A stretch of DNA of 64,000 bases from Candidatus Uhrbacteria bacterium CG10_big_fil_rev_8_21_14_0_10_50_16. GTDB lineage: Bacteria > Patescibacteriota > Patescibacteriia > UBA9934 > UBA11717. Below the pieces are notes generated by a model. It was not told the DNA's origin and ran no database searches. It saw only the letters and a program-made list of their open reading frames with translations. The DNA lies in NCBI GenBank assembly GCA_002774875.1, contig PCYM01000005.1, forward strand, positions 1,979-65,978, in the 5' to 3' direction. Numbering within the stretch: the first letter of the stretch is position 1; each line of letters begins with the position of its first letter. The position numbers and the translations under genes were made by a program. Positions 2,161 to 63,122 of this stretch are shown piece by piece.

Positions 2161-2241
2161 GAGCGATTCCTCCCTTCAAAGATTTGATTCCGTGTTGAAC
2201 ATAACCGAATTGGTCTTTGGTGTCAATGGATGCTCGCGGTG

Positions 2242-2360
2242 GTGCAAAAATAAGGGACTCGGCAGGCCACGCCACTCTGCGCGCATTCGCACTCAGAAGA
2301 CAGCTTGTCAGAGATAAGGTCTTGTAAGCATGGCGCCGACTTGTCCCTTATTTTTTGCAC
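2242..2360. repeat. Near-perfect 18-19 bp inverted repeat pair (gtgcaaaaataagggac / gtcccttattttttgcac) flanking a ~85-bp core; MITE-like or large hairpin
   Basis: Arms at 2242-2258 and 2343-2360 read directly from the sequence. Flanking bases extend the imperfect complementarity (gggactcggc / gccgacttgtccc). Confidence 0.6.
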
Positions 2361-2403
2361 AACTCCTCGCTCCTGCATTACCTGAAGTGCTTCGTCGATA
2401 GCA

Positions 2404-2482
2404 CTTATCTTCAAACACATGCGTTTTGAGAATACTCGTAAACTCGTATTTCAAAACACACGTGTTCTCGGGGACGAAGGCT
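2404..2482. repeat. 79-bp imperfect-palindromic element, copy A (tandem with copy B)
   Basis: Identical 79-bp sequence recurs at 2511-2589. Internal arms aacacatgcgttttgagaa / ttctcaaaac... are partially self-complementary. Confidence 0.8.
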
Positions 2483-2510
2483 GAAGTTCTAGATTTCTTC
2501 GTCGAGGAGG

Positions 2511-2589
2511 CTTATCTTCAAACACATGCGTTTTGAGAATACTCGTAAACTCGTATTTCAAAACACACGTGTTCTCGGGGACGAAGGCT
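2511..2589. repeat. 79-bp imperfect-palindromic element, copy B
   Basis: Exact duplicate of 2404-2482, separated by a 28-bp spacer. Confidence 0.8.
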
Positions 2590-2767
2590 AGACCTTGATC
2601 AGATCAAGATCGGATGAGATCAGAGGTTAGCTGAATTGATTCGATTCAGTTTGATGGGAATCCTGGTTTACCCCCCTCCTCACTGAGTAGGGGAATGAGG
2701 GGAGGTGTGATCTTGTGTGTCTGTTGGATCGAGAAAAGGTTCAAAATACTTTTGATTGTCGTTCGTC

Positions 2768-2796
2768 TTGAGCAAACCTAGGGAAATTGCTAGAGT
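2768..2796 (+). promoter_or_regulatory. Candidate sigma70-like promoter for leuS (TTGAGC-17-TAGAGT)
   Basis: Hexamers with 17-bp spacing ~45 bp upstream of the leuS ATG. Same architecture as the stronger promoters elsewhere in this window. Confidence 0.35.
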
Positions 2797-2840: not shown

Positions 2841-5800
2841 ATGAAATACAATCACAAAGATATTGACGCAAAATGGCAGAAGCGATGGATGAGTGAGGGC
2901 GTGTTTACTATGGACGATGCGTCGGAGAAGGAAAAGTTTTACTGCTTGGTGGAGTTTCCTTATCCCTCTGGTGCGGGTCTGCACATGGGTCACCCGCGCA
3001 GTTACACCGCGCTCGATGTGTTGTCGCGCAAGCGTCGTATGGAGGGGTACAACGTGCTTTACCCAATCGGTTGGGACGCGTTTGGTCTGCCAACGGAGAA
3101 CTACGCCATCAAAACAGGTCGTAAGCCGCAAGAAGTAACGACGGAGAACATCAACACGTTTAGACGACAGTTGCAGTCGCTTGGAATCTCTTTTGATTGG
3201 TCGCGAGAGGTCAATACCACGGACCCGGCGTATTACAAGTGGACGCAGTGGATGTTTTTGGAATTTTTTAAGGCGGGGATGGCGTACAAAAAAGCCATGG
3301 CGATTAACTGGTGTGTGCGTTGTAAAATTGGTCTTGCAAACGAGGAGGTTGTAAACGGCGTATGCGAACGCTGTGGCGGCGAAGTTGAAAAACGTGATAA
3401 AGAGCAATGGATGATTGCCATAACCCGGTATGCAGACCGGCTGATTGATGATTTGAAGACCGTGGATTATTTGCCAAAGATTGCCAAGCAACAAGAAGAC
3501 TGGATTGGCAGGTCCGAGGGTGCCGAGGTGACGTTTGCATTAGAGGGAGATGTGAGTGAATATAATTTTTTGGGTCTTCATGCGTTTTGTGATGATTCGA
3601 CATCCGCTTTTTGGCCCTGGTTGCAAAAAGAACTCTCAACTCGCGGAGGGACGCTGACGGTGTTAGATTTGCCAAATTCAAGCGAGCCAACTATTGCCAA
3701 ACAGGTGCAGTACATAAGGGAGAACTATACCTTTAATGAAAAGACGATCATTCTTACGCACTCGCTTGGGGGGGTTGCGGCAATGAAGTTACTTCCAGAA
3801 TTAGATCAATCTATTAAGAAGTTAATTCTCATTGCACCGCCCACCAATCCATCTCGGTTTATGGATAAAAAGCCTCGACCGGCGTTAGACGCTTGTTGCG
3901 ATTGGTCGTTTGATTATCAGGCTATTAAAGATAAAGCGGGATCAATTATTGTTATTGCCGATGAGCAAGATCACATTGTTCCTTTGTCACAACCAAAACA
4001 GCTTGCAGATCAGTTGCACGCAGAATTTTTCATCTTCAAATCAAACACGCCTCATTTTAATGCTGTTGAGGAGCCGGTTGTACTACGTTCGATTTTGCCA
4101 CACGTAACTGTCTTCACTACGAGGCCGGATACGCTATTTGGGGCGACGTATGTGGTGTTGGCGCCGGAGCATCCGTTGATTGCAGAACTTGCGAATAGGA
4201 TTCAAAACAAAAAAGATGTGGAAGCGTATCAACAAGTCACAAAAGAAAAGACAGAGATAGAACGTGGAGATGCGACCAAGGAAAAAACAGGCGTGATGTT
4301 GAAGGGTGTGCAGGTGATTCATCCTGTCACAGGTGAAGTATTGCCCGTGTGGGTCGCAGATTACGTGCTAATGAGTTATGGCACGGGGGCGATTATGGCT
4401 GTGCCTGCACACGATGTACGTGATTATCAATTTGCAAAAACATATGGTTTGCCAATTCATCAAGTTATAGAAGCACCGATCGTTTCTGTTCCAAGTGGTA
4501 TTGTGCATCAAACAGCAGGGCAACTTACAGAACCGATTGTTGTTGATGTCGCCTGTTATACGGGGGAAGGTGTATGTGTCAACTCAGACTTTTTGAATGG
4601 GTTGGAAATTGAGGCGGCAAAAGCAAAAATGATTGAATGGTTAGAGAAGGAGGGGAAGGGCGTGCGGAAGATTAACTATCGATTGCGCGACTGGGTGTTT
4701 AGTCGCCAGCGATATTGGGGTGAGCCGATTCCATTGGTGCATTGTGATACCTGTTCGCCGGAGACGGATGGATGGGTGGCGGTGCCGATTGAACAACTGC
4801 CTGTTACGTTACCGGATGTAGAGAAATATGAGCCGACGGATAGTGGAGAATCACCTTTGGCAACGATCACGGATTGGGTCAACACCACGTGTCCGGAATG
4901 TGGCGGTCCTGCAACACGCGAGACAGACACCATGCCAAACTGGGCGGGAAGCAGTTGGTACTTTTTGCGCTACGTCGATGCCCATAATCCGGATGCCTTT
5001 GCCGATCCACAAAAACTCAAAAGATGGATGCCTGTTGATTGGTATAATGGTGGTATGGAGCACACGACGTTGCACTTGTTATATTCGCGTTTTTGGAACA
5101 AATTTTTGTTCGATCGCGGACACGTGCCAACGTCCGAGCCGTACGCAAAACGCACAAGCCATGGATTGATCCTCGCCGAAGATGGAACCAAGATGAGCAA
5201 GTCAAAAGGCAATGTGGTGAATCCGGATGAACTCGTGGAGCAATTCGGCGCAGATGCGTTGCGATTGTTGGAGTTGTTTATTGGACCGTTTGCAGAGCCG
5301 GCGCCCTACAGCCACGCGGGGATGGTGGGAACCCGACGGTTTTTGGAGAAGGTAATGGATCTACCGGGCAAGGTTGTCGAGACGGAATCGGAGGAGGTGA
5401 CGCGCGCGTTACATCAACTCATTCAAAAAGTTGGTGAGGATATTGAGACACAGGGGTACAACACGGCCGTGAGTGCGTTGATGATTTTTGTGAATGCCGT
5501 TGGTGACGGTGGAGGGCTCACAAGGCAGACGTTGCAAGCGTTTGCGTGTGTGTTATCGCCGTTTGCGCCGCATATTGCCGAGGAAGTGTGGAGCCAGGTG
5601 GGGGATGGGTTGGCGATGCAACAACCATGGCCGGCGTTTGATGCGGAACTGGCAAAAGACGTCGTGGTAACGTTGGGCGTGCAGGTGAATGGCAAAGTGC
5701 GCGGGCAGGTGACGTTGGCCGTGGATGCAACGGAGGCGCAGGCGCGTGCGGCGGCCGAGGCGGATGAACATGTACAAACCTATTTGCAGGGAAAGACGGT

Positions 5801-5852
5801 TAAGAAGTTTGTGTATGTACCTGGACGCATTGTGAGCTTTGTGGTGGTATAG
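2841..5852 (+). CDS. leuS: Leucyl-tRNA synthetase with a ~190-aa alpha/beta serine-hydrolase domain inserted at the catalytic-core/CP1 junction
   Basis: HMGH and KMSKS motifs; Zn knuckle CVRC...CERC; CP1 editing motifs TTRPDT and GTGAIMAVPAHD. Extra segment between GAEVTFALEG and VTVFTTRPDT contains THSLGG and IADEQDH...H. Start chosen at MKYNHKDIDAKWQ. Confidence 0.9.
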   Translation: MKYNHKDIDAKWQKRWMSEGVFTMDDASEKEKFYCLVEFPYPSGAGLHMGHPRSYTALDVLSRKRRMEGYNVLYPIGWDAFGLPTENYAIKTGRKPQEVTTENINTFRRQLQSLGISFDWSREVNTTDPAYYKWTQWMFLEFFKAGMAYKKAMAINWCVRCKIGLANEEVVNGVCERCGGEVEKRDKEQWMIAITRYADRLIDDLKTVDYLPKIAKQQEDWIGRSEGAEVTFALEGDVSEYNFLGLHAFCDDSTSAFWPWLQKELSTRGGTLTVLDLPNSSEPTIAKQVQYIRENYTFNEKTIILTHSLGGVAAMKLLPELDQSIKKLILIAPPTNPSRFMDKKPRPALDACCDWSFDYQAIKDKAGSIIVIADEQDHIVPLSQPKQLADQLHAEFFIFKSNTPHFNAVEEPVVLRSILPHVTVFTTRPDTLFGATYVVLAPEHPLIAELANRIQNKKDVEAYQQVTKEKTEIERGDATKEKTGVMLKGVQVIHPVTGEVLPVWVADYVLMSYGTGAIMAVPAHDVRDYQFAKTYGLPIHQVIEAPIVSVPSGIVHQTAGQLTEPIVVDVACYTGEGVCVNSDFLNGLEIEAAKAKMIEWLEKEGKGVRKINYRLRDWVFSRQRYWGEPIPLVHCDTCSPETDGWVAVPIEQLPVTLPDVEKYEPTDSGESPLATITDWVNTTCPECGGPATRETDTMPNWAGSSWYFLRYVDAHNPDAFADPQKLKRWMPVDWYNGGMEHTTLHLLYSRFWNKFLFDRGHVPTSEPYAKRTSHGLILAEDGTKMSKSKGNVVNPDELVEQFGADALRLLELFIGPFAEPAPYSHAGMVGTRRFLEKVMDLPGKVVETESEEVTRALHQLIQKVGEDIETQGYNTAVSALMIFVNAVGDGGGLTRQTLQAFACVLSPFAPHIAEEVWSQVGDGLAMQQPWPAFDAELAKDVVVTLGVQVNGKVRGQVTLAVDATEAQARAAAEADEHVQTYLQGKTVKKFVYVPGRIVSFVVV

Positions 5853-5925
5853 CTCGCGTTATCCACACTTGCAAAATTTTATAGGGTTGTTATAGTTGCC
5901 TCAGTTCCGATTAGAAGTGAACCAC

Positions 5926-5962
5926 AAAAACCTCCCCCTTGGGGGTGTTTTTGTTTATTTGT
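5926..5962 (+). terminator. Intrinsic terminator after leuS
   Basis: cctccccc ttg ggggtg hairpin followed by a tttttgtttatttg T-tract. Confidence 0.5.
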
Positions 5963-6114
5963 AAAAACGGGGTTTGGTAACAATAAGCAAGATCATCTCG
6001 TGAGCATAATCGAGAGCTCTCTCCGCGTGTCCCCTCGGCGAAACAAAAGGAGGGAGAAAAGAGTAGAGAGATGTTTGTAATCTTGTAATTCAATTTAGAC
6101 TCAAACAAAAACTC

Positions 6115-7326
6115 ATGACAAAATCCGCGGTGTTCCAATGCTTTCTTGTATTGTGGATCTTCTCTGTGTTTGTGCAACAGCTTGTGTTTCGCGATGTGTG
6201 GCCAGACGTTCCGGCAGGCGACATACATCTTGTTGGGGTTGTGCGCGAACAGGTGGATCAAAAAGGACTCATGCAACGTGTGCGTGTGTTGGTCGATTCA
6301 ATCCCCGGTTTTGTACAGTTAGAAATTGGTCCGTATCCTGTGTTGCAAGTGGGGGATAGGGTTAAAACTGATTGCACGCTCACACCGATTCGTGATCTGA
6401 ACTCTGAGGAGTTTCGCTATGATCGCTATCTTGCAAAGGAACAGGTGTATGTGGTCTGCACAGGTTACGGCTCGCCGCAAGTGATCGGGGTGGAAACGGG
6501 CTGGCGGCAATCCTTGGATCGGTGGCGTCAAGCGTTTGCAGGCGTGATTCAACAACATCTCCAAGAGCCTCACGCAAGCTTGTTGATCGGATTGTTGTAT
6601 GGCGCGCGATCCACGTTGCCGACAGATCTTGTGGACGCGTTCAGACGAACAGGTACCATGCATATTGTGGCGGTGTCGGGATTTAACGTTACAGTGGTTG
6701 CTAACGCGATTTTATTGTTGCTAACGACGACATTTTTACGACGACAGCGTGCGTATTATTGTGTGCTCGCAGGGATTGGCCTCTTCGTTTTGTTTGCGGG
6801 TGCCGATGCGGCGGTGGTGCGCGCGGGAATTATGGGCGCGCTCGTGTTGACGGCAAAACAAATCGGACGGCCACGCGTAACGGTGACACTTTTTTTGATG
6901 GCCGCAAGCGTCATGCTGGCAATTAATCCTCGCATGTTGTTGGATGACGTAGGATTTCAACTTTCCTTTGCCGCCGCAATTGGATTGGTTACGCTTGGCC
7001 CTGTGTTTCAATGTTGGTTTGTATTTTTGCCAAAACGCTGGCAAATACGCTCCATTTTGTCCGAGACGCTCGCGGCCACCATTGCTACAATGCCCATCTC
7101 ACTCTTACAGTTTAAGACGGTTTCACTGATTTCGCCGATTGCAAATCTGTTTGTGATCCCGTGGATTGTCCTTGCTATGTCGCTTGGAATGGCGGGGGCG
7201 GTGGTGTCGATGGTTGCCCCCAGCAGTGGCACGATTGCGTTTTTTCCCGTAGCCGTAATTTTAGAAATCATGCTCACCTTTGTGCGCGTATTTGCGCCAC
7301 TTCCAATTATCGATCTCGCTCTATGA
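6115..7326 (+). CDS. comEC: ComEC/Rec2 N-terminal part (DUF4131 + competence membrane domain)
   Basis: LLIGLLYGARSTLPTDLVDAFRRTGTMHIVAVSGFNVTVVA competence-domain signature; multiple TM helices. Confidence 0.8.
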   Translation: MTKSAVFQCFLVLWIFSVFVQQLVFRDVWPDVPAGDIHLVGVVREQVDQKGLMQRVRVLVDSIPGFVQLEIGPYPVLQVGDRVKTDCTLTPIRDLNSEEFRYDRYLAKEQVYVVCTGYGSPQVIGVETGWRQSLDRWRQAFAGVIQQHLQEPHASLLIGLLYGARSTLPTDLVDAFRRTGTMHIVAVSGFNVTVVANAILLLLTTTFLRRQRAYYCVLAGIGLFVLFAGADAAVVRAGIMGALVLTAKQIGRPRVTVTLFLMAASVMLAINPRMLLDDVGFQLSFAAAIGLVTLGPVFQCWFVFLPKRWQIRSILSETLAATIATMPISLLQFKTVSLISPIANLFVIPWIVLAMSLGMAGAVVSMVAPSSGTIAFFPVAVILEIMLTFVRVFAPLPIIDLAL

Positions 7327-60034: not shown

Positions 60035-61048
60035 ATGGATAATACGGAATTGAATAACGAAATCATTATTTATACTGGCGACGGTGGTCAGCCGATTATT
60101 CAGGTACGAATTGAAGGGGAGACCGTGTGGCTTAGTCAAACGCAATTGGCAGAATTATTCGACACGACGAAACAAAACGTCAGCCTTCATATTCAGAATA
60201 TTTACGAAGAAGGCGAGTTAACAAAAGAAGCAACTGTCAAGGAATACTTGATTGTTCAAAAAGAGGGGAATAGGGAGGTTTCACGACGGATTGAACATTA
60301 TAGTCTCGATCTTATTATTTCTCTTGGCTATCGCGTTAGATCGAAGATTGCTACACATTTTCGCCAATGGGCCACGGCACGACTTCGTGAGTATATCGTG
60401 AAAGGCTTTACAATGGACGATGAACGGTTAAAAGGAAATGGCGGCGGACAGTATTGGAAAGAACTTCTTGATCGCATTCGCGATATTCGTTCCAGCGAAA
60501 AGATGCTTTATCGTCAAGTGCTTGATTTGTATGCGACGAGTATTGATTATGATCCGAAAAGTACTGAGTCAATAATATTTTTTAAAGTCGTGCAAAACAA
60601 ATTGCATTACGCGACGAACCAACACACGGCCGCAGAGACCATCCATGAACGCGCGGATGCAGAAAAAGATTTCATGGGACTTACAACGTTTGCAGGAGCA
60701 ATGCCTGTATTATCAGAAGTTGGGACGGCTAAAAATTATCTGACAGAAGATGAACTTTTCCGTTTAAATCGTCTCGTTTCAGCATTTTTTGATCTTGCAG
60801 AAATTAAAGCACAAGAGCATACAGCAATGCACATGGCCGATTGGGTTGCAGAGCTTGATAAATTTGCAGAGAACTTTGGTAAGGGTGTGCTCACCGATGC
60901 GGGTTCCGTTAGTCACGAACAAGCGAAAAAGAAAGTAGCAGTAGAATATCGTAAGTATCAGGCGAAGACCCTTTCCCCAGTTGAAGAAGCGTATTTGGAG
61001 AGTGTGAAGGCGTTAGGAAAGGAAGTGGAGAAGCGAGTAAAAAAGTAA
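60035..61048 (+). CDS. rhuM: RhuM-family (virulence-associated, Fic/DOC-neighbourhood) protein
   Basis: N-terminus IIIYTGDGGQPIIQVRIEGETVWLSQTQLAELFDTTKQNVSLHIQNIYEEGEL matches the RhuM family pattern; AT-rich gene. Confidence 0.75.
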   Translation: MDNTELNNEIIIYTGDGGQPIIQVRIEGETVWLSQTQLAELFDTTKQNVSLHIQNIYEEGELTKEATVKEYLIVQKEGNREVSRRIEHYSLDLIISLGYRVRSKIATHFRQWATARLREYIVKGFTMDDERLKGNGGGQYWKELLDRIRDIRSSEKMLYRQVLDLYATSIDYDPKSTESIIFFKVVQNKLHYATNQHTAAETIHERADAEKDFMGLTTFAGAMPVLSEVGTAKNYLTEDELFRLNRLVSAFFDLAEIKAQEHTAMHMADWVAELDKFAENFGKGVLTDAGSVSHEQAKKKVAVEYRKYQAKTLSPVEEAYLESVKALGKEVEKRVKK

Positions 61049-61119
61049 TTCGTCGGTACGTACATCGACTAATTGTTGAGCTCCACACCCCATTATTACA
61101 TTGCGTCTGGAGGGGTTGA

Positions 61120-61144
61120 GTGGTGTTTGTGATAAGATTTGATT
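61120..61144. repeat. 25-bp direct repeat, right copy
   Basis: Identical to 59966-59990; the preceding hairpin is degenerate compared with the hisS terminator. Confidence 0.8.
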
Positions 61145-61186
61145 GATGTATTTCAAAATCCTATTTTGTTCTAAGAACATTGTCCT

Positions 61187-61534
61187 ATGAAAACACTGTC
61201 AGATTTAACAACAAAGATTGTAGCTTTTAGGGATGCTCGAGATTGGAAACAGTTTCACAACCCAAAAGATTTAGCACTATCTTTAGTGTTGGAGGCCGCA
61301 GAGGTTATGGAACATTTTCAATGGAAAAATTCAGAAGAAATGGAGAAATATGTCCAAACGAATAAATCTGATATTGGTGATGAACTAGCGGATGTTTTGT
61401 ATTGGGTTTTACTAATGAGCCACGATCTCGATATTGATATTTTAGACGCACTTGAAAAGAAAATATTAAAAAATGAAGCAAAGTACCCGGTCGATAAAGC
61501 AAAAGGGCTGCACACAAAATACACGGAGCTTTAA
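61187..61534 (+). CDS. MazG-like nucleotide pyrophosphohydrolase (small, single domain)
   Basis: EVMEHFQWK...ELADVLYWVLLMSHDLDID pattern (EExxE...DxxD metal-binding helices) typical of the MazG/YpjD family. Confidence 0.7.
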   Translation: MKTLSDLTTKIVAFRDARDWKQFHNPKDLALSLVLEAAEVMEHFQWKNSEEMEKYVQTNKSDIGDELADVLYWVLLMSHDLDIDILDALEKKILKNEAKYPVDKAKGLHTKYTEL

Positions 61535-61535
61535 T

Positions 61536-63122
61536 ATGCAGGCCATAAAGACATTTGCTTTTTCTGATAGCGGCTTTGAAACAATTAAAAAAGATCATTA
61601 TGGTTTAGATTGGCCGGTTGTTTATTTTATTGAAAATGGGAAGGAGGCTTATATTGGAGAGACAATCCACCTTTATTATAGGAGCAAGGAGCATTATAAA
61701 AATAAGGAGAGACAAAGATTGCATCAAGTTCATGTTGTGACAGATGAGGAATATAACAAGTCTGCAGCACTTGATATTGAATCTTGGTTAATTCAATACA
61801 TTGCAGCAGATGGTATTTTTAAATTACAAAATGGCAATGCAGGGTTAAAGAATCATGAATATTTTGATCGGGAAAAATATTTATCAAAATTTGAGAATGG
61901 CATTTGGCCTAAGCTAGTAAAGATGGGTCTTGCGAAGAATAATCTAGTCCAATTAAAAAATAGCGACCTTTTTAAGTATTCACCTTACAAAACGTTATCT
62001 GCAGACCAAATAGCATTTGTAGAGGCTCTTGTGGATGAAATAGCTCAAGAGAAATTAACGTTTGTGGTGCGTGGAAGACCGGGGACCGGCAAGACTATCG
62101 TGGCAGTATATTTAATGAAATATTTGAAGGAAGATAGTCGCACGTCGCATCTAAAAGTGGGCTTGGTTATTCCGATGACTTCATTGCGTAAAACGTTAAA
62201 GAATGTTTTTAAAAATATTGTGGGGCTGTCACCTTCAATGGTGATTGGTCCGGCTGATACAGTAAAAGCAGAGTATGATTTGTTGTTAGTTGATGAGACG
62301 CATAGGCTGCGACGTAGAAAAAATATTACTAACTATAAGGCTTTTGATGACATAAATCGTCATTTTGGATTTGAGAATACCGGCACCGAACTAGATTGGA
62401 TTCAAGCATCTGCTATGAAACAAGTTTACTTTTATGATGAGCAGCAGAGTGTCAGACCTTCTGACATTAGACCTTCTCAAATTGCACGTCTGCAGGCAAA
62501 GGAGTTCACGTTGCAGTCTCAAATGAGAGTAAGAGGCGGAGAGAGATATCTGGCGTTTATTGATAGTTTATTTGGTGACGGAGACATTCGTTCTGTAGAT
62601 TTTCCTCAATATGATCTCAGGATGTATGAAGATATTTCTTTGATGGTAAAAGAAATAAAGGAAAAAGATGAAGCCGTGGGTCTCGCGCGTATGGTTGCTG
62701 GATACGCTTGGTCGTGGAAGACGAGGAATTTAAAACCTCACGATGAAGGATTTGATATAGAAATAGATGGGGAAAAATTGCGTTGGAATTCTACAAATGC
62801 TGATTGGGTTAACTCGGAAAATGCAGTGAACGAAGTTGGATGTATTCATACTGTACAGGGGTATGATCTCAATTATGTTGGGGTGATTATTGGTCCGGAA
62901 CTAAAATGGGTAGACGGTAAGTTTGTACTTGATAGGTCGAGCTACTTTGATAAGAATGGACATAGAGGGGTTGAAAACGAAGAGGAGATTATTGGGTATG
63001 TGTTGAATATATATAAAACCTTACTCACTCGTGGAATTATCGGTACATTTATCTATGTGGTGGATCCCGGATTACGCAATTATCTAAAAAATATTTTAAA
63101 TCAAGCCCCAAAACCTCAATAA
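61536..63122 (+). CDS. GIY-YIG nuclease domain fused to an SF1-like P-loop helicase (DUF2075-like)
   Basis: N-terminus VVYFIENGKEAYIGETIHLYYRSKEH (GIY...YIG...R..E); Walker A GRPGTGKT; Walker B LLLVDETHRL; C-terminal helicase motif CIHTVQGYDLNYVGVIIG. Confidence 0.75.
   Translation: MQAIKTFAFSDSGFETIKKDHYGLDWPVVYFIENGKEAYIGETIHLYYRSKEHYKNKERQRLHQVHVVTDEEYNKSAALDIESWLIQYIAADGIFKLQNGNAGLKNHEYFDREKYLSKFENGIWPKLVKMGLAKNNLVQLKNSDLFKYSPYKTLSADQIAFVEALVDEIAQEKLTFVVRGRPGTGKTIVAVYLMKYLKEDSRTSHLKVGLVIPMTSLRKTLKNVFKNIVGLSPSMVIGPADTVKAEYDLLLVDETHRLRRRKNITNYKAFDDINRHFGFENTGTELDWIQASAMKQVYFYDEQQSVRPSDIRPSQIARLQAKEFTLQSQMRVRGGERYLAFIDSLFGDGDIRSVDFPQYDLRMYEDISLMVKEIKEKDEAVGLARMVAGYAWSWKTRNLKPHDEGFDIEIDGEKLRWNSTNADWVNSENAVNEVGCIHTVQGYDLNYVGVIIGPELKWVDGKFVLDRSSYFDKNGHRGVENEEEIIGYVLNIYKTLLTRGIIGTFIYVVDPGLRNYLKNILNQAPKPQ

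What the first reader, a model, noticed from the sequence alone, without database searches (positions are those of the whole stretch)
2404..2589. Family of ~80-bp imperfect-palindromic elements: two tandem copies upstream of leuS and one inverted copy beside tRNA-Leu
An identical 79-bp sequence occurs twice in tandem (2404-2482 and 2511-2589, with a 28-bp spacer) in the leuS leader. A third copy at 40750-40827 lies in the opposite orientation with the same two arms (gaacacgtgtgttttgaaa / ttctcaaaac[a/g]...catgt...gaagat) but a different central ~24 nt. Conserved arms, including the same arm asymmetries, with a divergent loop point to a structured RNA or protein-binding palindrome rather than a random repeat. 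Both loci are leucine-related (leuS leader; ~270 bp from tRNA-Leu-CAA), which could be coincidence or a regulatory link. No T-box specifier or antiterminator consensus was recognisable.
Basis: seen in the sequence. Interest (0 to 1): 0.55.

Follow-up and report, generated by a model that had tools for sequence, protein, structure and literature searches.

The report
Dispersed palindromic intergenic repeat, not leucine-specific
The repeats upstream of leuS are real, but they belong to a family of about 100-bp hairpin-forming repeats scattered between unrelated genes of an uncultured Uhrbacteria-like (CPR) bacterium, comparable to the REP/REPIN/BIME repeats of other bacteria, and are not a leucine-related regulator.

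Summary
Two tandem units lie at 2390-2482 and 2497-2589 (period 107), and an inverted unit lies at 40739-40845. Nothing comparable occurs elsewhere in the window, and there is no Rfam match.

The organism is a Candidatus Uhrbacteria-like CPR bacterium. The same unit occurs in metagenome contigs from the same samples, between uvrC and mraZ (4 tandem units), a sigma-70-like gene and infB (2 plus a remnant), a MopE-repeat gene and a Wzy-like gene, two unknown genes, and znuA and the RNase J gene. It also occurs in two other Uhrbacteria-like organisms. Both orientations are used, and several assemblies break at it. The conserved leuS promoter-like block lies downstream of the repeats, so they are probably not in a leuS leader.

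Each unit folds into an outer stem, a 21-pair hairpin with a conserved bulge, and a small side hairpin. These are kept by compensatory changes (7 pairs; 0 of 500 shuffles reach the observed values). One strand folds consistently better.

The units sit in mosaics with other repeated modules. This makes REP/REPIN/BIME the closest known kind. No transposase was found, so how the repeat spreads is inferred.

The parts
2390..2482 (-). Unit A of the palindromic repeat. It has an outer stem (CTTCGTC/GACGAAG), a long imperfect hairpin and a small side hairpin. The strand given is the better-folding ('F') strand.
2483..2496 (.). Linker between units A and B (GAAGTTCTAGATTT). It is related to the GGCTGGATT / CCTTGATCG linkers of arrays at other loci.
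2497..2589 (-). Unit B, the tandem copy of A. It differs only at 2506-2510, in the side-hairpin segment.
2594..2626 (.). GATC-rich run (TTGATCAGATCAAGATCGGATGAGATCAG). A run of this kind follows the last unit at nearly every locus and belongs to the repeated mosaic.
2286..2389 (.). Flanking 'module T' with a terminator-like end (GTCCCTTATTTTTT). It is 97% identical to L011 9619-9510 next to another unit, and 73% identical to a second place in L011. Within the window it is the 3' half of a long hairpin at 2239-2363.
2667..2716 (.). CCCCTCCTC...GAGGGGAGG hairpin module. It is 86% identical to L011 9383-9335, again beside a unit, and is absent from the leuS upstream region of the relative L003.
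2768..2796 (+). Promoter-like TTGAGC-N17-TAGAGT for leuS. It is conserved in the 82% relative and lies downstream of the repeats.
   Evidence: inference from conservation and consensus; the scanner threshold was not reached
40739..40845 (+). Unit C, inverted relative to A and B. It has the loop variant GATTCGCGCTGTGGCCCTATC, also seen in L009. Its F-5' end is the variant TGTCGCAA, which does not close the outer stem.
40714..40738 (.). GATC-rich run next to unit C, on the same side of the unit as at locus 1.
40692..40708 (+). Flank module GCAATGACGGATGGTTG. It is also found beside the arrays in L009 and L022.

Best explanation
The three copies belong to a lineage-specific family of repetitive extragenic palindromic elements of a Candidatus Uhrbacteria-like (Patescibacteria/CPR) bacterium.

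A unit is about 100 bp. On its better-folding strand it reads 5'-CCTTCG[C/T]C | CCCRAG | AACACGTGTGTTTTGAAA.. apical stem and variable loop ..TCTCAAAACGCATGTGTT | TGAAGAT + 3-4-bp side hairpin | G[G/A]CGAAGG-3'.

Units occur singly, as decayed half-units, or in head-to-tail arrays of 2-4 with a period of 104-107 bp. They are embedded in mosaics with other short repeated modules: a GATC-rich run, a terminator-containing module and a CCCCTCC hairpin. They lie only between genes, in either orientation, next to unrelated genes.

Shown here: multiple loci, strictly intergenic location, hairpin conservation by compensatory change, tandem amplification together with the flanks, gain or loss between related species, and no specific tie to leucine genes.

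Inferred: the family spreads as a non-autonomous element whose single-stranded hairpin is recognised in trans, as proposed for REPINs and their Y1 (RAYT) transposases. Arrays then grow by unequal recombination or slippage. When transcribed through, the hairpins could act like REP/BIME elements, as RNA 3'-end protection or as barriers between transcription units. There is no sign of amino-acid-specific regulation of leuS.
For: Copies and contexts:
- Exact 19-mer scans found the arm in Uhrbacteria MAG UBA11717 and in 5 relevant metagenome stretches. Contig look-ups added a further locus just left of the window.
- The profile and covariance model confirm 4 tandem units in L009, 2 plus a remnant in L022, and 1 each in L010/L007 and L011. 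They also confirm degenerate or half units in L012 and L001, and 2 units flanking leuS in the 82% relative L003.
- The neighbouring genes are unrelated to each other and to leucine.
- Unbiased sampling gives 3 loci in about 83 kb (window plus about 10 kb to the left and 9 kb to the right).
- Contigs of several assemblies start or end inside the unit or its flank module (L014/L015, L007, L001, L003, L004, L023-L025).

Structure:
- On 13 units, 87% of cells are paired. Seven pairs show changes on both sides (24 cells). None of 500 shuffles reaches the observed percentage paired, double-change cells or covariation score. Slid controls give 28-57% paired.
- The outer stem switches between CTTCGTC/GACGAAG and CTTCGCC/GGCGAAG. 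The apical stem switches between GAAATAC/GTATTC, GAAAGAT/ATCTTC and AAAGTAT/GTACTT.

Strand asymmetry: one strand folds better in 5 of 6 units as RNA, by 5-10.5 kcal/mol, with unit C the exception. It also folds better in 3 of 3 units as ssDNA.

REPIN-like traits as defined in PMC3116915: inverted doublet with spacer, compensatory changes, degraded singlets, and tandem clusters that include the flanking sequence.

Turnover: L003 has one unit upstream of leuS and one downstream. The window has two upstream and none downstream.
Against: - No transposase of any kind was found. About 50 flanking and window ORFs were scanned with Pfam or NCBIfam, and a RAYT sequence recalled from memory gave no tblastn hit. 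Only about 190 kb was available, so this says little either way.
- The GT[A/G]G tetranucleotide that I recall as typical of REPs recognised by RAYTs (own knowledge, not checked in a paper here) is absent next to the arms.
- No target-site duplication or clean empty site could be defined, because the flanks are themselves repeated modules.
- The assignment of the Ga0210057, Ga0210019 and Ga0066639 contigs to the same population as the window rests on shared samples and shared loci, not on binning.
- The invariant unpaired segments (CCCRAG, TGAAGAT) combined with covarying helices would fit a functional RNA equally well.
- The G.T versus A.C bias behind the strand asymmetry is 7 versus 3 independent position-events in the long helix, which is not significant.
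Confidence: 0.6

Rival explanations
1. A family of structured non-coding RNAs, or cis-acting RNA modules, transcribed from the better-folding strand. The three-helix unit with invariant junction nucleotides would be the functional entity, for example an RNA-stability or processing module, an antisense RNA, or a multi-hairpin protein sponge. Its repetition would reflect use at many operons.
For: The helices covary while the unpaired CCCRAG and TGAAGAT segments stay invariant across three organisms. One strand folds consistently better, because mismatches there are G.U rather than A.C. In the window, the long hairpin 2239-2363 next to unit A has T-runs on both strands, and a promoter-like TTGCAG-N16-TAAGAT precedes the L022 array on that strand.
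Against: There is no Rfam match. The units lie in both orientations relative to neighbouring genes, so the better-folding strand is sense to a neighbouring gene at only about half of the loci. No conserved promoter is seen on that strand across loci. Half-units and decayed copies exist. The strand bias is not statistically significant and holds equally for ssDNA. No expression data were available.
Confidence: 0.15
2. A miniature inverted-repeat transposable element (MITE) mobilised by a DDE-type insertion-sequence transposase. The outer 8-bp stem (CCTTCGCC/GGCGAAGG) or the long arms would serve as terminal inverted repeats.
For: Its size (about 100 bp), terminal inverted symmetry, dispersed intergenic copies, differences between related species and assembly breaks all fit.
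Against: No consistent target-site duplication is seen at unit boundaries. Head-to-tail arrays with a fixed linker are not typical of MITE insertion. No insertion sequence or transposase with matching ends is present in the available sequence. Compensatory change along an internal 21-pair stem is not required of MITE ends.
Confidence: 0.1
3. Double-stranded DNA binding sites for a dimeric or nucleoid-associated protein, as BIMEs bind gyrase and IHF, or for a regulator. The site would centre on the perfect palindrome ACACGTGT in one arm.
For: Every unit keeps exactly one perfect ACACGTGT. In L003 it sits in the other arm. The most conserved 25 nt (TTTCAAAACACACGTGTTCTCGGGG) also occurs alone in L001 and L012.
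Against: A simple operator does not need a 21-pair hairpin, an outer stem and a side hairpin, all kept by compensatory change. The contexts share no functional theme. Positions relative to promoters vary, from between convergent 3' ends (L022) to between divergent starts (window locus 1).
Confidence: 0.1
4. A leucine-responsive leader or attenuator (T-box-like) shared by leuS and tRNA-Leu.
For: Two of the window's three copies lie upstream of leuS, and one lies 254 bp from tRNA-Leu. A unit is also upstream of leuS in the 82% relative.
Against: At least seven other loci have unrelated neighbours. The units lie upstream of the conserved leuS promoter-like block. Copy C points towards a different gene and is separated from the tRNA by two terminators. 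There is no T-box hit at E <= 10. The 64% relative has no unit upstream of leuS.
Confidence: 0.03

Closest known systems
REPINs / REP sequences (Pseudomonas fluorescens SBW25, E. coli; Bertels & Rainey 2011, PMC3116915)
   Same: Both have two conserved inverted arms separated by a less conserved spacer, forming a long hairpin in ssDNA or RNA. Both show compensatory changes across the hairpin, strictly extragenic and dispersed copies, isolated half-elements that look decayed, and tandem clusters of near-identical units that include their flanking sequence.
   Different: No RAYT (Y1 transposase) gene has been found. There is no GT[A/G]G next to the arms. The unit carries an additional outer stem and a side hairpin. 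The host is a roughly 1-Mb CPR bacterium, and the sequence is unrelated.
BIMEs (bacterial interspersed mosaic elements) of enterobacteria
   Same: Both are mosaics in which palindromic units combine with a limited set of other short conserved motifs and linkers, in variable number, between genes.
   Different: BIMEs alternate REP orientation (Y/Z), whereas these units are head-to-tail. The protein partners known for BIMEs (gyrase, IHF, Pol I) were not tested here. This comparison rests on my own knowledge of BIMEs.
Correia elements (CREE/NEMIS) of Neisseria and ERIC/RUP/BOX-type repeats
   Same: All are intergenic imperfect palindromes of about 100-150 bp present in many copies. They can be co-transcribed and fold as RNA hairpins.
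   Different: Correia elements have 26-bp terminal repeats, a TA duplication and an IHF site. None of these is seen here, and there is no sequence similarity. No tandem arrays with a fixed linker are described for them (own knowledge).
T-box leaders of aminoacyl-tRNA synthetase genes
   Same: The only shared feature is position upstream of an aminoacyl-tRNA synthetase gene.
   Different: There is no Rfam T-box match, no specifier or antiterminator, and the units lie upstream of the promoter-like block. The same unit also occurs at unrelated genes.

Membership tests
REP/REPIN | Short palindromic sequence repeated many times per genome, confined to extragenic space | tested here: met
   At least 7 loci, 12 full and 3 partial units, in contigs from the same samples. 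There are 3 loci in about 83 kb of contiguous, unbiased sequence, and all are intergenic. The whole-genome count is extrapolated, not counted.
REP/REPIN | Inverted doublet of conserved arms with a spacer, forming a hairpin, with compensatory changes | tested here: met
REP/REPIN | Singlets as decayed remnants; tandem clusters that include flanks | tested here: met
   Half-units occur in L001, L012 and L022 6467-6557. Arrays of 2-4 units with conserved linkers occur in the window, L009 and L022. The definition is taken from PMC3116915.
REP/REPIN | A cognate RAYT (Y1/IS200-like) transposase gene in the same genome, flanked by the repeats | not testable with these tools
   No complete genome was available. 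None was found among about 50 ORFs scanned or by tblastn with a recalled RAYT. About 190 kb is too little to conclude.
REP/REPIN | Conserved GT[A/G]G tetranucleotide at the 5' end of the REP (a feature of RAYT-recognised REPs; own knowledge) | tested here: not met
   There is no GTAG or GTGG adjacent to either arm in any unit.
MITE | Terminal inverted repeats flanked by a target-site duplication; a related autonomous insertion sequence | tested here: inconclusive
   The outer 8-bp inverted ends exist, but no consistent duplication is seen. The flanks are other repeated modules, and no insertion sequence is present in the available sequence.
T-box riboswitch | Match to the T-box covariance model, with a specifier loop and the T-box antiterminator, located in the 5' UTR | tested here: not met
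   No Rfam hit at E <= 10 over 2150-2900. The units lie upstream of the conserved promoter-like block.
CRISPR array | Short (24-48 nt) identical repeats separated by unique spacers of similar length | tested here: not met
   The conserved part is about 85 nt and the variable part 10-15 nt. The same 'variable' loops recur at different loci.

The most novel reading that the evidence does not exclude
The unit is not merely selfish DNA but a functional, strand-specific, three-helix nucleic-acid module peculiar to a CPR lineage. Two forms are possible. It could be a new multi-copy structured RNA, in which tandem hairpin arrays act as processing or stability signals or as a protein sponge. Or it could be the substrate of an undescribed HUH-type domesticated transposase in genomes of about 1 Mb. 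The second would extend REPIN-RAYT-like systems to Patescibacteria, where I found no report of them.
Probability: 0.15. Interest if true: 0.6.

Novelty: new member of a known kind. Interest (0 to 1): 0.3.

Why it matters
The result removes a tempting but false lead, namely a leucine-sensing leader shared by leuS and tRNA-Leu.

It also documents that a streamlined CPR genome carries a structured, multi-copy mosaic of intergenic repeats, at roughly one locus per 25-30 kb.

Three consequences follow:
- The repeats break short-read assemblies of this lineage. Several contigs end in them.
- They offer variable-number tandem-repeat (VNTR) style strain markers, since the array size is 1, 2 or 4 depending on the locus or organism.
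- They give a concrete hairpin with which to look for a cognate single-strand transposase or RNA-binding partner in Patescibacteria.

Three full-text searches found no description of such repeats in CPR bacteria. That library is incomplete.

Tried and rejected
- **Rfam.** The whole window at gathering threshold gave only 3 tRNAs. The two loci at E <= 10 gave only sub-threshold chance matches (miRNA, sRNA and snoRNA models).
- **More copies in the window.** nhmmer --max and a covariance model found no further or diverged copies.
- **Coding repeat.** Rejected, because the periods are 104, 105 and 107 nt, and the overlapping 65-aa ORF has no Pfam hit.
- **Promoter inside the unit.** TTGAGA-N18-TATCTT is present in copy C, but the spacing and the -10 element are not kept in other loop variants, so this was rejected.
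- **Orientation rule.** 6 of 8 loci are co-oriented with the local genes, which is not significant. The two window loci are oppositely oriented within one replichore, where GC skew is positive throughout. No replication-strand rule was found.
- **Mobile-element carriers.** There is no similarity in phage or plasmid collections. Neither arm occurs in IMG/VR viral contigs.
- **Transposase hunt.** Pfam or NCBIfam scans of about 50 ORFs and tblastn with a recalled RAYT found nothing.
- **Integron attC.** Its R''/R' core consensus is not matched, judged by inspection and from my own knowledge.
- **DNA-uptake sequence.** Density is far too low and the element is confined to intergenic DNA.
- **Chance hits.** Three 19-mer hits (L002 Rhizobiaceae, L008 TARA, L013 inside a gene) show no similarity beyond the seed and were treated as chance.
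- **Look-ups that added nothing.** Exact look-ups of LeuS from ATG 2841 and of the last window ORF returned nothing. S12 neighbours gave only short contigs without units.

Full report
**1. Observation**

- The repeat finder reports a 93-nt direct repeat at 2390-2482 and 2497-2589 (95% identical, period 107). Each copy contains an imperfect inverted repeat of 16 nt.
- The arm GAACACGTGTGTTTTGAAA occurs exactly three times in 64 kb: twice on the - strand (2449, 2556) and once on the + strand (40756). With up to 3 mismatches, 0.04 matches are expected by chance.
- Aligning the three copies shows that the third extends over about 40739-40845. It shares the left flank (GATTCCTTCGCCGAG..GCTCATCTTC) with A and B and differs in the central part.
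- A profile HMM and a covariance model find no further copies in the window.
- The downstream ORF is leuS (ATG 2841; TIGR00396, 953 bits; it carries an inserted hydrolase domain). tRNA-Leu(CAA) lies at 41099-41185 on the - strand.

**2. Organism**

The best LeuS relatives are Candidatus Uhrbacteria and Patescibacteria proteins. A 100%-identical protein sits on JGI contig Ga0066639_10000283. That contig begins inside unit B (L014/L015). The window is therefore from an uncultured CPR bacterium found in environmental metagenomes; the sample carrying the 82% relative (L003) is labelled groundwater.

**3. Copies elsewhere**

An exact scan with the 19-mer across one genome per species found two stretches. 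One is a real partial copy in Uhrbacteria MAG UBA11717 (L001; nhmmer 7.5e-9). The other is a seed-only match treated as chance.

The metagenome scan and contig look-ups gave the following loci:

| Locus | Units | Neighbouring genes |
|---|---|---|
| L009 | 4 head-to-tail, period 104-105 | uvrC 3' end and mraZ |
| L010 (= L007 in another sample) | 1 plus a truncated one | MopE-repeat protein gene and a Wzy-like gene |
| L011 | 1 | two genes of unknown function |
| L012 | 1 degenerate | znuA and an RNase J gene |
| L022/L021 | 2 tandem plus a half-unit | convergent sigma-70-like gene and infB, about 4 kb left of the window |
| L003/L004 (LeuS 82% identical) | 1 upstream and 1 inverted downstream of leuS | leuS |

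Supporting calls for this table are 25-31, 40, 51 and 60-62.

- The relative with 64% LeuS identity has no unit.
- Contiguous, unbiased sequence (the window plus about 10 kb to the left and 9 kb to the right) holds 3 loci in about 83 kb. For a genome of about 1 Mb, a size assumed from what is typical of CPR bacteria, that extrapolates to a few tens of loci.
- Many contigs start or end in the unit or in its flanking module, as expected for a multi-copy repeat.
- Assigning the Ga0210057, Ga0210019 and Ga0066639 contigs to the window's population is an inference. It rests on shared samples and shared loci.

**4. Leucine link**

The neighbouring genes have nothing in common.
- Copy C is oriented towards the 214-aa gene at 40022-40666, not towards tRNA-Leu. 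Two identical terminators (40884-40922 and 41064-41102) and a 140-nt structured region separate it from the tRNA.
- Upstream of leuS, similarity between the window and the 82% relative begins at 2767. That block includes a promoter-like TTGAGC-N17-TAGAGT at 2768-2796.
- The repeats end at 2589, so they most probably lie outside the leuS transcript. This is an inference, because no transcription start data exist.
- No T-box or any other Rfam family matches.

**5. Anatomy**

Thirteen units could be cut into the same seven segments:
1. outer stem 5' (CCTTCG[C/T]C)
2. invariant CCCRAG
3. 21-nt 5' arm
4. variable loop of 10-15 nt
5. 22-nt 3' arm with one conserved bulged C
6. invariant TGAAGAT (TTAAGAT in L003, CGAAGAT in unit C) followed by a 10-nt segment that usually forms a 3-4-bp hairpin (GAGT/ACTC, GAGC/GCTC, GAGG/CCTC, GATA/TATC)
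7. outer stem 3' (G[G/A]CGAAGG)

With the loops trimmed, 87% of cells pair. Seven pairs show changes on both sides (24 cells). None of 500 column shuffles reaches the observed percentage paired, double-change cells or covariation score. Sliding the partners gives only 28-57% pairing. RNAalifold independently recovers the outer and long helices.

The same loop variants recur at different loci, so they mark sub-families rather than unique spacers.

One strand (- for A and B, + for C) folds better:
- As RNA, in five of six units tested: -34.7 vs -25.7, -39.6 vs -29.1, -38.2 vs -31.4, -38.5 vs -32.1 and -25.5 vs -20.5 kcal/mol. Unit C is the exception.
- As ssDNA, in three of three units.

The cause is that mismatches are G.T on that strand and A.C on the other. 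Counted as independent position-events in the long helix, this is 7 versus 3, which is suggestive only.

**6. Mosaic context**

The units are embedded among other repeated modules.
- Window 2286-2381 ('module T', ending in a terminator-like GTCCCTTATTTTTT) is 97% identical to the sequence next to the L011 unit. It has a second, 73%-identical copy elsewhere in L011.
- A CCCCTCC...GGGGAGG hairpin (2667-2716) recurs beside the L011 unit.
- GCAATGACGGATGGTTG flanks the arrays in the window (40692), L009 and L022.
- A GATC-rich run (GATCAGATC-like) adjoins the same end of almost every array, including those in the two other organisms.
- Modules differ between orthologous leuS upstream regions. The window has two units plus the CCCCTCC module, while L003 has one unit and no such module. 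L003 also has a unit downstream of leuS where the window has none. Gain and loss therefore occur between related species.

**7. Interpretation**

The features match the published description of REP doublets (REPINs) and their clusters: inverted conserved arms with a spacer, compensatory changes, decayed singlets, and tandem clusters including the flanks (PMC3116915). They also match the mosaic organisation of BIMEs (own knowledge).

I therefore read the family as a REP/REPIN/BIME-like extragenic palindromic repeat of a CPR lineage.

The mobilisation mechanism is inferred, not shown. It would involve a trans-acting single-strand-specific transposase, followed by array growth through unequal recombination.
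- No transposase was found in about 190 kb.
- The GT[A/G]G that I recall as typical of RAYT substrates (own knowledge) is absent.
- No target duplication could be defined.

The main rival is a structured RNA module. The invariant junction nucleotides and the strand asymmetry keep it alive. The mixed orientations, the half-copies and the lack of a conserved promoter argue against it.

**8. Novelty and score**

Nothing similar is present in Rfam, the phage or plasmid collections, or IMG/VR. Three full-text searches found no description of such repeats in CPR bacteria.

It is a new member of a well-known kind of element. The specific hypothesis that made it interesting, leucine-linked regulation, is refuted. 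Interest is modest.

Noticed in passing
window 40923-41063 (- strand), flanked by 40884-40922 and 41064-41102: A region of about 140 nt lies between two identical 39-nt copies of the tRNA-Leu terminator. On the - strand it ends ...GGTGAAGGCGATTCACCCTCTATCACCA, which resembles a tRNA 3' end with CCA. Together with the terminator it folds at -75.7 kcal/mol (z = -5.05). ARAGORN and Rfam find nothing. It could be an unknown small RNA or a degenerate tRNA-like gene duplicated along with its terminator.
   Followed up: partly
window 2239-2363: A long imperfect hairpin (AAAAATAAGGGAC ... GTCCCTTATTTTT) has T-runs on both strands and lies between the divergent 303-aa gene and the repeats. Its 3' half is a repeated module (97% identical to L011 9619-9522; 73% to L011 7446-7352). 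Similar ends occur in L003 and L001.
   Followed up: partly
window 5859-5977 (= L003 3320-3439, 86% identical): A conserved block lies just downstream of leuS. It holds a promoter-like TTGCAA-N17-TATAGT followed by a short hairpin and T-run (CCTCCCCCTTGGGGGTGTTTTTG). It could be a small RNA, or a leader in front of comEC.
   Followed up: no
window 2667-2716; L011 9335-9383: A hairpin pairs an anti-Shine-Dalgarno-like CCCCTCCTC with GAGGGGAGG, followed by TGTGATCTTGT. It is repeated at two unrelated intergenic regions, and its function is unknown.
   Followed up: partly
window 40610-40622 and 40658-40670; L022 about 6030-6045 and 6120-6135; L009 about 3000; L012 about 7455: The short motif GC[G/A]ATGACGACC and its complement recur, often as inverted pairs (GTCGTCATTGCG ... 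CGCAATGACGG). In the window it overlaps two in-frame ATG codons at the start of the 214-aa ORF. In the window alone the count is only weakly above chance (6 observed vs 2.3 expected).
   Followed up: partly
window 2841-5852: LeuS is about 1000 aa because of an inserted alpha/beta-hydrolase-like domain (PF06821 Ser_hydrolase). Many Patescibacteria LeuS proteins share this insertion, and others carry a NUDIX domain instead.
   Followed up: no
window 60035-63122: A low-GC stretch (0.385-0.43, against about 0.49 elsewhere) holds a RhuM-family gene and a Schlafen-like helicase gene. It may be a small acquired defence or mobile island next to hisS.
   Followed up: no
window 43492-45254: parA and parB genes lie about 2 kb from the copy C / tRNA cluster region. 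GC skew stays positive across the whole window, so no replication origin is evident here.
   Followed up: no
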